From Escherichia coli (lineage in GTDB: Bacteria; Pseudomonadota; Gammaproteobacteria; Enterobacterales; Enterobacteriaceae), in the NCBI RefSeq assembly GCF_003334335.1, contig NZ_QOWQ01000029.1: a DNA stretch of 64,000 nucleotides; one strand, written 5' to 3'. This document shows positions 1 to 1,663 of this stretch, piece by piece (the stretch's first letter is position 1; every line of letters begins with the position of its first letter). Position numbers: made by a program.

Positions 1-1663
1 GTAGCTCAGCTGGATAGAGTACTCGGCTACGAACCGAGCGGTCGGAGGTTCGAATCCTCCCGGATGCACCATATTCTCCGAAATCTTCAGCAATGAAGGT
101 ATCGAAGAGGTAGCGGAATTAACCGCAGGCACTAGGGATGATAACGTTGCTTTAGCAACGGCCCGAAGGGCGAGCCGCAAGGCGAGTAATCCTCCCGGAT
201 GCACCATCTCTTAATTGATATGGCTTTAGTAGCGGTATCAATATCAGCAGTAGAATAAGTTTTCCCGATGCATCCGTAGCTCAGCTGGATAGAGTACTCG
301 GCTACGAACCGAGCGGTCGGAGGTTCGAATCCTCCCGGATGCACCATATTCTCCGTAACCTTCAGCAATGAAGGTATCGAAGAGATAGCGGTATTAACCG
401 CAGGCACCAGGAAGGATAACGTTGCGCCAGCAACGGCCCGAAGGGCGAACGTCAGTGAGTCATCCTCCCGGATGCACCATCTTCTCCAAAAAATTTCCTT
501 CAAAAATATCTCATTTCTAAATAACTCCTTTATCCATTTCCTGAATTTTCTTCTCCTTCGCCATCAGCGACAAAATCAAGCAATTACGCTAAAGTAGCGT
601 CATATTTTTCGACTTGCGAGAAGACCATGTACGAGCGTTATGCAGGTTTAATTTTTGATATGGATGGCACAATCCTGGATACGGAGCCTACGCACCGTAA
701 AGCGTGGCGCGAAGTATTAGGGCACTACGGTCTTCAGTACGATATTCAGGCGATGATTGCGCTTAATGGATCGCCCACCTGGCGTATTGCTCAGGCAATT
801 ATTGAGCTGAATCAGGCCGATCTCGACCCGCATGCGTTAGCGCGTGAAAAAACAGAAGCAGTAAGAAGTATGCTGCTGGATAGCGTCGAACCGCTTCCTC
901 TTGTTGATGTGGTGAAAAGTTGGCATGGTCGTCGCCCAATGGCTGTAGGAACGGGGAGTGAAAGCGCCATCGCTGAGGCATTGCTGGCGCACCTGGGATT
1001 ACGCCATTATTTTGACGCCGTCGTCGCTGCCGATCACGTCAAACACCATAAACCCGCGCCAGACACATTTTTGTTGTGCGCGCAGCGTATGGGCGTGCAA
1101 CCGACGCAGTGTGTGGTCTTTGAAGATGCCGATTTCGGTATTCAGGCGGCCCGTGCAGCAGGCATGGACGCCGTGGATGTTCGCTTGCTGTGAGTGAAGC
1201 GTTATCGCTTTTCTCGTTGTTTGCCAGTAGTTTTCTCAGCGCTACACTATTACCCGGCAACTCCGAAGTCGTGCTGGTGGCAATGTTGCTTTCCGGGATC
1301 AGTCATCCCTGGGTTTTAGTTTTAACAGCAACAATGGGTAATAGCCTTGGAGGGTTAACTAACGTTATCCTTGGGCGTTTCTTTCCATTGCGTAAAACAT
1401 CGCGCTGGCAAGAGAAAGCTACCGGCTGGCTGAAACGCTATGGTGCAGTCACGCTATTATTAAGCTGGATGCCCGTGGTTGGCGATTTACTGTGTCTGTT
1501 AGCGGGATGGATGCGCATCTCGTGGGGACCGGTAATCTTTTTTTTGTGCCTTGGTAAAGCGTTACGCTATGTTGCAGTTGCAGCAGCGACCGTTCAGGGC
1601 ATGATGTGGTGGCACTAATTGTAGGCCTGCACATATGGTCACCATTACAGTTATGCTAATTAA

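What the first reader, a model, noticed from the sequence alone, without database searches (positions are those of the whole stretch)
72..500. Each tRNA-Arg gene is followed by a spacer that ends in a copy of the tRNA 3' end
The spacers at 72-212 and 347-487 are near-identical. Each contains two small hairpins (aacgttgc...gcaacg and gcccgaagggc) and ends with cctcccggatgcaccatc, a duplicate of the last 17 nt of the tRNA. The unit is therefore tRNA plus spacer plus pseudo-3'-end. Such partial tRNA ends are what integrase att sites or unequal-crossover gene amplification leave behind. The spacers could also be stable processing products with functions of their own, as reported for some tRNA external transcribed spacers acting as sRNA sponges.
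Basis: partly seen in the sequence, partly recalled or inferred. Interest (0 to 1): 0.3.

Follow-up and report, generated by a model that had tools for sequence, protein, structure and literature searches.

The report
RtT-like structured spacers after tRNA-Arg genes
The two spacers after the E. coli tRNA-Arg genes are unannotated, shortened relatives of the known RtT repeat of the tyrT operon: folded RNA modules whose copied tRNA 3' end forms one strand of a tRNA-like stem, so this is a real feature of a known kind, and its function is still unknown.

Summary
The window is E. coli (argZ 3' part, argQ, yqaB). The 18-nt tRNA-Arg 3' end occurs four times in 500 bases: twice in the tRNAs and twice at the ends of two 133-135-nt spacers that are 87% identical.

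The spacers are not att-site scars. They share a conserved core with the RtT repeats of the tyrT operon (Rfam RF00391) but score below the family threshold (31 and 23 bits against 45). RefSeq annotates nothing there.

In other Gammaproteobacteria the same core follows tRNA-Tyr, Arg, Lys and Pro genes, and in E. coli rrnH a 5S rRNA gene. In 69 of 81 tRNA-linked elements the last 18 nt are identical to the host tRNA, including lineage-specific variants.

The copied end pairs with a host-specific upstream strand. This gives an acceptor/T-stem-like helix with a free ACCA tail, in which three small hairpins take the place of the T-loop. Compensatory changes support this fold.

"Each tRNA-Arg" does not hold for the whole operon: argY has no element, and element positions differ between strains and genera, which fits unequal recombination.

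By analogy with RtT, the spacers are probably excised as stable by-products of tRNA processing. That step is inferred, and the function is unknown. Interest is modest.

The parts
1..71 (+). 3' part of tRNA-Arg(ACG) gene argZ, cut by the window edge
   Evidence: Rfam tRNA match 1-68, 50.5 bits, 5'-truncated. Identical to K-12 argZ.
72..206 (+). RtT-like element copy 1 (135 nt), from the base after the argZ CCA to the pseudo-CCA
   Evidence: Rfam RtT 31.0 bits, E=0.0012, below the gathering score of 45. Own short-type model R1 scores 92.2 bits at 126-206. Fold z-score -3.9.
85..98 (+). Hairpin A (CUUCA-GCAA-UGAAG), GNRA-type loop; the copy 2 equivalent is 359-374
   Evidence: MFE fold. E. cloacae has AACAGC-GAU-GCUGUU at the same place (sequences), read by eye as compensatory.
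113..126 (+). Hairpin B (GCGG-AAUUAA-CCGC); the copy 2 equivalent is 388-401
   Evidence: MFE fold. Variants GCGA..UCGC (E. cloacae) and AUCGUUU..AAACGAU (Brenneria) appear.
129..142 (+). P1 5' strand (GCACUAGGGAUGAU): acceptor-like 7 nt + T-stem-like GGAUG + AU. It pairs with 189-202; the copy 2 equivalent is 404-417.
   Evidence: Duplex with the cognate pseudo-end -11.2 kcal/mol here and -19.8 in the argV copy. Compensatory pairs in P1.
145..160 (+).
   Evidence: (I2). 98% of cells paired. Flanked by a covarying A.G/G.A purine pair.
161..171 (+).
   Evidence: It is invariant, and it was part of the search pattern, so it gives no covariation evidence.
174..183 (+). P4 hairpin GCC-GCAA-GGC. 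In copy 2 (about 449-458, ACGUCAGUGA) it no longer folds.
   Evidence: 45 distinct P4 segments were found across taxa. Most fold as hairpins, with many different stem sequences. Pair 51-60 shows GC/CG/AU/UG.
188..207 (+). Pseudo-3' end, copy 1: 20 nt identical to tRNA positions 53-72. 189-202 is the P1 3' strand and 203-206 the ACCA tail.
   Evidence: (D2).
207..269 (+). Ordinary inter-tRNA leader (63 nt) with a small hairpin at 214-242. It is the same sequence that directly follows argY in K-12.
   Evidence: 94% identical to the argY-argZ spacer. Inverted repeat I7.
270..346 (+). tRNA-Arg(ACG) gene argQ
   Evidence: ARAGORN; Rfam tRNA 67.1 bits; RefSeq annotation.
347..479 (+). RtT-like element copy 2 (133 nt), the last unit of the operon. 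The pseudo-3' end is 462-480 (19 nt).
   Evidence: Rfam RtT 22.8 bits; model R1 84.2 bits at 401-479; fold z-score -4.0.
586..609 (+). Terminator-like hairpin ACGCUA-AAG-UAGCGU + CAUAUUUUU, probably the end of the serV-arg transcription unit, 18 nt before the yqaB ATG (627)
   Evidence: Consensus scan only; ORF list.

Best explanation
The two spacers are divergent 'short-type' members of the RtT repeat family, the structured RNA modules first found as the 178-bp repeats of the tyrT operon. They are co-transcribed with the tRNA-Arg genes.

Each folds into two 5' hairpins followed by a domain closed by a long helix, P1. The 3' strand of P1 is the copied tRNA 3' end. The 5' strand resembles the tRNA's acceptor 5' strand plus T-stem 5' strand (GCAcCaG-GGAGG). 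P1 therefore mimics the stacked acceptor/T-stem 'minihelix' of tRNA-Arg and leaves a free ACCA tail. A conserved three-hairpin module (P2-P3-P4) sits where the T-loop would be.

The pseudo-3' end is therefore a structural part of the RNA, not a scar. It probably gives the spacer a tRNA-like 3' terminus, so the normal tRNA-processing enzymes would release the spacer and leave the junction to the next leader unchanged. That processing step is inferred.

The elements probably arose from partial tRNA gene copies carrying an insertion in the T-loop. The pseudo-end stays identical to the neighbouring tRNA through gene conversion or unequal crossover among the repeats, which also moves, adds and deletes elements. 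Both of these steps are also inferred.

The cellular role of the released RNA is unknown.
For: Homology to RtT: Rfam hits at 31.0 and 22.8 bits align over the full model. The four tyrT/tyrV copies score 133-138 bits. The shared core is ..AACGUUGC-loop-GCAACG-GCCCGAAGGGYGAG-hairpin-GAGUMAUCC.

Family-wide rule: 81 tRNA-linked elements follow Tyr, Arg(ACG), Arg(CCG), Lys and Pro genes. In 69 of them the last 18 nt are identical to their own tRNA. Where the tRNA end is a lineage variant, the pseudo-end follows it in 11 of 12 elements and never carries the majority form. A related element after 5S rRNA in rrnH ends in the 5S 3' end.

Structure: fold z-scores are -3.9 to -6.2. 86% of cells are paired against 27-46% in the slid controls, and the covariation score is 0.14 against 0.05 in shuffles, reached by 0 of 500. 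P1 and P4 show compensatory pairs. P4 occurs as 45 distinct segments, most of which still fold as hairpins. The 5' strand is complementary to the cognate pseudo-end: -17 to -18 kcal/mol for Arg and Tyr against about -11 for non-cognate ends. An A.G/G.A swap flanks P2 in 65 of 68 distinct elements.

tRNA origin: the Yersinia nurmii element aligns to a 35-nt internal stretch of the tRNA-Arg body up to the T-loop, followed by the core and then the tRNA 3' end (alignment score 46).

Dynamics: argY is an 'empty site', and architectures differ between strains and genera.

Precedent for a released RNA: rttR is annotated as ending exactly at the pseudo-CCA. Rfam-RtT members next to Asn and Lys tRNA genes were among the candidate sRNAs examined by Northern blot in A. 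pleuropneumoniae (PMC4986893).
Against: The window copies fail the Rfam gathering score. They lack the long-type 5' module.

P1 is imperfect in both window copies (-11.2 and -13.6 kcal/mol against -19.8 for the argV copy). P4 has decayed in copy 2. Some copies may therefore be drifting.

The outer, acceptor-like part of P1 is paired in only about half the sequences.

Apart from the Yersinia case, the 5' halves show no significant similarity to the tRNA body (z about 1.2), so the tRNA-copy origin is not shown for the E. coli elements.

The seed set came from an exact pattern over P2/P3, so those helices are biased towards conservation.

No expression or processing data for the arg spacers were available.
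Confidence: 0.72

Rival explanations
1. Neutral by-product. The spacer and pseudo-3' end are leftover sequence from tandem amplification of the tRNA-Arg unit by unequal crossover. They have no constraint of their own and are simply degraded after tRNA processing.
For: Copy number and position vary between strains and genera. Copy 2 has lost P4 and both window copies have a weakened P1. The function of RtT is still described as unknown (PMC7542023). Concerted evolution alone could keep the pseudo-end identical to the tRNA.
Against: P1 and P4 show compensatory changes and 86% pairing against 27-46% in slid controls. The core is conserved from Enterobacterales to Orbales, Pasteurellaceae and Oceanospirillales-type genomes and across five or more host genes. 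The purine-purine covariation is hard to explain without an RNA-level constraint.
Confidence: 0.13
2. Trans-acting regulatory RNA. The excised spacer acts on other molecules. It could be an sRNA sponge like 3'ETS-leuZ. It could also be an uncharged-tRNA acceptor-end mimic that modulates the stringent response or titrates tRNA-processing enzymes.
For: Later papers report that RtT of tyrT modulates the response to amino-acid starvation (PMC4986893 and PMC7542023, both citing Bosl and Kersten 1991). The fold is compact and stable with a free ACCA tail. This reading is compatible with the best explanation and extends it.
Against: There are no target, binding or expression data for the arg spacers. 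No literature hit mentions them. The variable copy number argues against a dosage-critical regulator.
Confidence: 0.12
3. Remnant of site-specific integration. The pseudo-3' end is an attR-type duplicate left by an integrase-carrying element that inserted into the tRNA 3' end and later decayed.
For: Direct repeats of 19-20 nt covering the tRNA 3' end flank the spacer. argY looks like an empty site.
Against: Only about 115 nt lie between the repeats, with no integrase and no conserved ORF. The same core is found at Tyr, Arg, Lys and Pro tRNA genes and at 5S rRNA, which would require different integrase specificities. Elements occur as tandem arrays. The repeat is a paired strand under compensatory evolution. 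The phage collection gave no true phage match.
Confidence: 0.03

Closest known systems
RtT RNA / rttR, the 178-bp repeats of the E. coli tyrT-tyrV operon (Rfam RF00391)
   Same: It lies directly downstream of a tRNA gene on the same strand. It ends in 19-20 nt identical to that tRNA's 3' end, including CCA. It shares the P2-P3-P4 core and the GAGUMAUCC junction. A closing helix pairs an upstream strand with the pseudo-end. Copy number is variable.
   Different: The arg elements are 133-135 nt against 175-178 nt. They lack the long-type module between P1 and P2 (GAGAAC + a T-arm-like hairpin ending in GGUUCGA + the GAGCG..GCGAGA hairpin) and have two unrelated 5' hairpins instead. They have no tpr-like ORF. 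They score 23-31 bits against the family threshold of 45 and are not annotated in RefSeq.
RtT-family elements of the E. coli lysT-valT-lysW operon and of the Lys, Pro and Arg operons of other Gammaproteobacteria
   Same: The short-type Lys elements have the same architecture as the arg elements, with P1 abutting P2. They score 79-98 bits with the model built from Arg and Lys short types.
   Different: P1 is specific for tRNA-Lys. The two E. coli lys-operon matches reach the Rfam threshold (60.7 and 55 bits), and both extend into an adjacent tRNA-Lys gene.
tRNA-operon spacer-derived sRNA sponges (3'ETS-leuZ, metZWV ITS)
   Same: These are spacer RNAs released by tRNA processing from a polycistronic tRNA transcript.
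   Different: Those are short, largely unstructured Hfq-dependent pairing RNAs with no copy of a tRNA 3' end. No pairing targets are known or were tested for the arg spacers. This comparison rests on general knowledge, not on a tool result.
tRNA acceptor/T-arm minihelix mimics (the tRNA-like domain of tmRNA, viral tRNA-like 3' ends)
   Same: A helix equivalent to the stacked acceptor and T stems, followed by an unpaired NCCA 3' tail.
   Different: The T-loop itself is replaced by a three-hairpin module. The helix has mismatches. ARAGORN and the Rfam tRNA model do not recognise the element. Aminoacylation or RNase P recognition is untested.
attL/attR repeats of tRNA-integrated genomic islands
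   Same: A direct repeat of the tRNA 3' end lies downstream of the intact gene.
   Different: There is no island and no integrase. The element is a conserved structured RNA found at several unrelated host genes.

Membership tests
RtT RNA (Rfam RF00391) | Covariance-model score at or above the curated gathering score (45 bits) | tested here: not met
   31.0 bits (79-206) and 22.8 bits (354-479) in the window. The K-12 argV copy scores 29.2. Other short-type Arg elements score 30-38 bits.
RtT RNA (Rfam RF00391) | Lies in a tRNA operon directly downstream of a tRNA gene on the same strand | tested here: met
RtT RNA (Rfam RF00391) | Ends in a copy of the 3'-terminal ~19-20 nt (with CCA) of the upstream tRNA | tested here: met
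   The tyrT copies show the same with the tRNA-Tyr end.
RtT RNA (Rfam RF00391) | Conserved core: P2 (AACGUUGC..GCAACG), P3 (GCCCGAAGGGC), variable hairpin P4, GAGUMAUCC | tested here: met
   Alignment of 49 elements from Tyr, Arg, Lys and Pro hosts. The 19-nt core pattern occurs twice in the window against 0.04 expected. P4 is degenerate in copy 2.
RtT RNA (Rfam RF00391) | Long-type 5' module (GGGGAAGGAUGAGAAC, T-arm-like hairpin ending GGUUCGA, GAGCG..GCGAGA hairpin) | tested here: not met
   Absent: P1 abuts P2 directly. This is why the Rfam score is low.
RtT RNA (Rfam RF00391) | Released from the operon transcript as a discrete stable RNA | not testable with these tools
   No expression data. 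The only evidence is analogy with rttR, annotated as ending at the pseudo-CCA, and with Rfam-RtT members examined in A. pleuropneumoniae (PMC4986893).
Integrase att-site remnant at a tRNA gene | Integrase gene or island cargo, or recognisable remains of it, between the direct repeats | tested here: not met
   About 115 nt lie between the repeats. There is no conserved ORF; the only long ORF runs antisense through the tRNA. No true phage match was found.
Integrase att-site remnant at a tRNA gene | Direct repeat of the tRNA 3' end flanking the insert, with empty sites in relatives | tested here: met
   This is equally expected from recombination between repeats.
Integrase att-site remnant at a tRNA gene | Insert specific to one target tRNA (one integrase, one attB) | tested here: not met
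   The same core lies next to Tyr, Arg(ACG), Arg(CCG), Lys and Pro tRNA genes and 5S rRNA.
tRNA spacer-derived sRNA sponge (3'ETS-leuZ type) | Originates from an external or internal transcribed spacer of a tRNA operon | tested here: met
tRNA spacer-derived sRNA sponge (3'ETS-leuZ type) | Hfq-dependent base pairing that sequesters specific sRNAs | not testable with these tools
   No interactome data. Literature searches found nothing on the arg spacers.
tRNA gene or pseudogene | Recognised as a cloverleaf by tRNA detectors | tested here: not met
   ARAGORN and the Rfam tRNA model call only the true tRNAs. The 5' halves are not significantly similar to the tRNA body (z about 1.2), except in Yersinia nurmii.

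The most novel reading that the evidence does not exclude
RtT-like elements are a single modular RNA domain: P2-P3-P4 with an A.G/G.A pair. The domain has spread among partial copies of different stable-RNA genes (tRNA-Tyr, Arg, Lys, Pro; 5S rRNA). In tRNA hosts it takes the place of the T-loop. The results are cloverleaf-shaped decoys that carry the authentic 3' terminus of their host and co-evolve with it. Once released, these decoys would act in trans as non-chargeable acceptor-end mimics. For example, they could titrate RNase P or 3' exonucleases, or feed into RelA-dependent sensing of uncharged tRNA. That would explain the old link between RtT and the stringent response.
Probability: 0.15. 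Interest if true: 0.7.

Novelty: new member of a known kind. Interest (0 to 1): 0.35.

Why it matters
In itself the finding adds three unannotated, sub-threshold members of the RtT family to the best-studied bacterial genome. It shows that the current Rfam model misses a whole short-type subfamily, found after Arg(ACG) and Lys genes in Enterobacteriaceae, and a 5S-linked relative.

More broadly, RtT has had no accepted function or structure-based rationale since 1991. Three observations give concrete, testable hypotheses about how these abundant spacer RNAs are processed and what they might bind:
- The copied host 3' end is always one strand of a host-specific, compensating helix with a free NCCA tail.
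- The pseudo-end co-evolves with the host gene.
- The same core follows several different stable-RNA genes.

The findings also warn genome annotators that duplicated tRNA 3' ends are not always att sites.

Tried and rejected
1. Protein coding. The tyrT repeat carries the small tpr ORF, but the arg spacers have no equivalent. Reading on from the ATG at 139-141 in copy 1 reaches a TAG at 152-154 (my reading). The only ORF over this region, 422-520 in copy 2, starts with TTG and has no counterpart in copy 1. The 123-aa minus-strand ORF runs through the tRNA.

2. Integrase or att origin. Rejected for the reasons given under rival explanations. The phage-collection search returned only bacterial contigs filed as phage, an unannotated 7.4-kb 'Salmonella phage' record that was not followed up, and chance 31-nt matches.

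3. The whole spacer as a decayed full tRNA copy. Local alignment of the 5' halves with the cognate tRNA body was not significant (z about 1.2; cognate 15-16 against non-cognate 12-15). The one exception was Yersinia nurmii. The by-eye resemblance of hairpins A and B to the D and anticodon arms is therefore not claimed.

4. Other copies in the 64-kb window. There are none: the core pattern with up to 3 mismatches matches only at 155-173 and 430-448. The tmRNA and the tRNA at 32300 have no duplicated 3' ends.

5. Literature. Bosl and Kersten 1991 is not held. Searches on argQ/argZ/argY, spacers, Hfq and ProQ found nothing about these spacers. Two searches were swamped by Rett-syndrome 'RTT' papers. 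I recall that Rudd (1999, Res Microbiol) and Komine et al. (1990, J Mol Biol) may already mention RtT-like repeats in other tRNA operons, but I could not verify this.

6. MAFFT and RNAalifold on the mixed-host alignment did not recover P4 because of misaligned gaps. P4 was assessed per sequence instead and in the short-type alignments.
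Full report
WHAT IS THERE

The first 700 bases of the window are 100% identical to E. coli K-12 and many other E. coli strains. Bases 1-71 are the 3' part of argZ. Bases 270-346 are argQ; both genes are tRNA-Arg(ACG). yqaB starts at 627.

The 18-mer ATCCTCCCGGATGCACCA occurs exactly four times, at 54-71, 189-206, 329-346 and 462-479, where 0.01 matches are expected by chance. So each tRNA gene in the window is followed by an element of 133-135 nt (72-206 and 347-479) that ends in a copy of the tRNA 3' end.

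The identity runs 20 nt in copy 1 (53-72 = 188-207) and 19 nt in copy 2, not 17. The two elements are 87% identical, and each is 86-92% identical to the K-12 argV copy. Their last 18 nt are identical in all three.

THE WHOLE OPERON

In K-12 the order is serV, argV, element, leader, argY, leader, argZ, element, leader, argQ, element. argY has no element. Its CCA is followed directly by the 62-nt leader that elsewhere follows the pseudo-CCA, and this leader is 94% identical to window 207-269. 'Each tRNA-Arg' is therefore not a rule.

With A for a tRNA-Arg gene and R for an element, other architectures are:
- another E. coli strain: A-A-A-R-A-R
- E. cloacae: A-A-A-R-A from the exact core pattern, with a further copy after the last tRNA found by the covariance model
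- Hafnia: A-A-A-A-R from the exact core pattern, with a second copy found by the model
- Brenneria: an element after each of three tRNA-Arg genes
.

This mobility within the array is what recombination among the 77-nt tRNA repeats, or between the 20-nt end repeats, would produce. That is an inference.

WHAT IT IS RELATED TO

A scan against Rfam gave full-length but sub-threshold matches of both spacers to RF00391, the RtT RNA: 31.0 and 22.8 bits against a gathering score of 45. I fetched the K-12 tyrT-tyrV locus. It holds four RtT copies at 133-138 bits, each ending in AATCCTTCCCCCACCACCAT, the tRNA-Tyr 3' end. The annotated sRNA rttR ends exactly at one of these pseudo-CCAs.

The arg and tyr elements share a core: AACGUUGC-loop-GCAACG, then GCCCGAAGGGYGAG, then a variable hairpin, then GAGUMAUCC, followed by the 3' end of the respective tRNA.

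RefSeq and the K-12 reference annotate nothing in the arg spacers.

THE FAMILY ACROSS GENOMES

It still returned hits in many Enterobacterales, plus Gilliamella, Zophobihabitans, a Pasteurellaceae MAG, Photobacterium, Marinobacterium and Amphritea. The matches in GC-rich Actinobacteria fall in sequence with no tRNA context.

Combined with ARAGORN, 81 elements lie downstream of tRNA-Tyr (33), Lys (30), Arg-ACG (11), Pro (5) and Arg-CCG (2) genes.
- In 69 of the 81, the last 18 nt are identical to the host tRNA in the same locus.
- Twelve elements lie next to a host tRNA whose end is a lineage-specific variant. Examples are Hafnia and Yersinia Arg (ATCTTCCTGGGTGCACCA), a Tyr G-variant, and Lys variants.
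- In 11 of those 12 the pseudo-end carries the same variant. It never carries the majority form.

A related element follows the 5S rRNA gene of rrnH in about half of E. coli genomes. It ends in AACTGCCAGGCATCAAATTA, which is the 5S 3' end plus flank. It carries a second 5S-like piece (GAGAGTAGGA) to the left of the core, and an upstream GGCAGTT complementary to the pseudo-end.

Long-type elements next to Pro, Lys and Yersinia Arg genes pass the Rfam threshold at 71-95 bits. Two matches in the E. coli lys operon reach 55-61 bits, and both extend into an adjacent tRNA-Lys gene. Rfam's RtT family therefore already spans several host tRNAs.

The E. coli-type Arg elements (23-38 bits) and the 5S-linked type (28-29 bits) are missed. 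[quoted passage not shown]

STRUCTURE

Each arg element folds well below shuffled controls (z -3.9, -4.0 and -6.2). The fold has two 5' hairpins and a multibranch domain closed by helix P1.

In P1, GCACCAGGGAGGAU pairs with AUCCUCCCGGAUGC, the pseudo-3' end, and ACCA is left unpaired. The 5' strand reads like the tRNA's acceptor 5' strand (GCAUCCG, here GCACCAG) joined to its T-stem 5' strand (GGAGG). P1 is therefore the equivalent of the stacked acceptor/T-stem minihelix, with the T-loop replaced by hairpins P2, P3 and P4.

On 16 short-type Arg and Lys elements:
- 86.5% of cells pair, against 27-46% when partners are slid.
- The covariation score is 0.145 against 0.049 in shuffles, reached by 0 of 500.
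- P1 and P4 contain compensatory pairs.

A covariance model built from these found 13 further short-type copies that had not matched the seed pattern. The 29-sequence alignment gives the same figures. That alignment is fitted to the model, and P2 and P3 were partly fixed by the seed pattern, so the independent evidence is in P1 and P4.

Further support:
- P4 occurs as 45 distinct segments, most of which still fold as hairpins.
- The upstream region pairs much better with the cognate pseudo-end than with those of other hosts: Arg -17.0 against -11.7 kcal/mol, Tyr -18.1 against -11.3.
- The purines flanking P2 swap together: A..G in 36 and G..A in 29 of 68 distinct elements. This points to a specific non-Watson-Crick pair.

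The window copies are not the best examples. P1 has a mismatch in each, and P4 has decayed in copy 2.

ORIGIN (INFERRED)

In long-type elements the core is flanked on the left by the host's T-stem 5' strand plus GUUCGA, and on the right by AUCC plus the T-stem and acceptor 3' strands. It looks as if the core sat inside a T-loop.

The Yersinia nurmii element aligns to a 35-nt internal stretch of the tRNA-Arg body up to the T-loop, followed by the core and then the tRNA 3' end (alignment score 46). This makes a partial tRNA copy with a T-loop insertion a plausible ancestor.

For the E. coli elements, the 5' halves are not significantly tRNA-like (z about 1.2), so this step is not shown for them.

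The pseudo-end tracks the tRNA while the rest of the element diverges by 8-14% within one operon. This is best explained by gene conversion or unequal crossover. Selection for identity cannot be excluded.

HOW IT MOST LIKELY WORKS

Shown:
- The spacers are conserved, structured RNA modules of the RtT family.
- The pseudo-3' end is a paired, compensating strand.

Inferred:
- The elements are transcribed with the tRNAs from the serV promoter.
- The tRNA-like helix plus NCCA tail lets the usual enzymes define a 3' end at the pseudo-CCA. These would be an endonucleolytic cut after CCA, 3' trimming, and RNase P at the next tRNA and possibly at P1.
- The junction to the downstream leader stays as it would be after a real tRNA.
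- P1 also sequesters a sequence that could otherwise mispair with the 5' acceptor strand of the next tRNA.

What the released RNA does is unknown. RtT has been linked to the amino-acid starvation response, as cited in PMC4986893 and PMC7542023.

- The att-site reading is not supported.
- Amplification by unequal crossover is consistent with the data.
- A stable processing product is plausible by homology but untested.
- The sponge idea is untested.

NOVELTY

The kind is known: the tyrT repeats, and Rfam RF00391 across several tRNA operons. The arg copies are unannotated, architecturally shortened members that fail the family model. I file them as new members of a known kind and note the short-type architecture.

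I could not check whether older papers (Komine 1990; Rudd 1999) already list them.

The family-wide regularities may be under-appreciated. They are the cognate end, the host-specific closing helix, the 5S-linked relative and the A.G/G.A pair. These carry the residual interest.

Noticed in passing
L123:1194-1332 (E. coli E110019 rrnH, between the 5S rRNA gene and aspU); also L105, L010, L078, L115, L116: An RtT-like element follows the 5S rRNA gene. It ends in AACTGCCAGGCATCAAATTA, a 20-nt copy of the 5S 3' end plus flank. It carries a second 5S-like piece (GAGAGTAGGA) left of the core and an upstream GGCAGTT complementary to the pseudo-end. A 170-nt query that includes it matches 2766 of 5426 complete E. 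coli genomes. Rfam RtT gives only 28-29 bits.
   Followed up: partly
window 144 and 161 (copy 1), 419 and 436 (copy 2); family-wide in alignment A2, columns 13 and 33: The purine just before P2 and the purine just after it swap together. The combination is A..G in 36 and G..A in 29 of 68 distinct elements, with 3 exceptions. This suggests a conserved non-Watson-Crick purine pair at the junction.
   Followed up: partly
L106:2034-2195 (-), Yersinia nurmii: This long-type element after tRNA-Arg(ACG) contains a near-exact copy of a 35-nt internal stretch of the tRNA body up to the T-loop. The core then follows, and then the tRNA 3' end. It looks like a tRNA pseudogene with an insertion in the T-loop, a possible intermediate in the origin of the family.
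   Followed up: partly
L103:2266-2433 and 2489-2655 (-), E. coli lysT-valT-lysW operon: Both Rfam RtT matches that pass the threshold here extend into an adjacent tRNA-Lys gene (2368-2440 and 2590-2662). It seems the 5' half of the Rfam model is being satisfied by real tRNA sequence. The elements themselves are the 78-99-nt short type.
   Followed up: partly
window 586-609: A terminator-like hairpin (ACGCTA-AAG-TAGCGT followed by CATATTTTT) lies 18 nt upstream of the yqaB start codon. It is probably the end of the serV-arg transcription unit. This rests on a consensus scan only.
   Followed up: no
window 32300-32375 (+) and 40152-40514 (-): A tRNA with anticodon CAT and the tmRNA gene have no second copy of their 3' ends anywhere in the window. 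No integrase-type att duplication is visible at these classic integration targets.
   Followed up: partly
H29 (OR850888.1, 'Salmonella phage S.Kent 1-2-1', 7356 bp), 1444-1501: A short record filed as a phage carries the RtT core at 86% identity over 58 nt. Other 'phage' hits were Salmonella chromosomal scaffolds. I did not check whether this record is bacterial DNA or a phage or prophage end next to a tRNA gene.
   Followed up: no
L015/L016/L017 (Acerihabitans), L092 and L118 (Marinobacterium, Amphritea; tRNA-Arg CCG), L027/L083 (Photobacterium), L089 (Pseudomonadales MAG): Some elements have the conserved core, but their pseudo-end matches the host tRNA only through the T-stem (6-11 nt) and then diverges, or no upstream tRNA lies within reach. 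These may be decayed or differently built members outside Enterobacterales.
   Followed up: no
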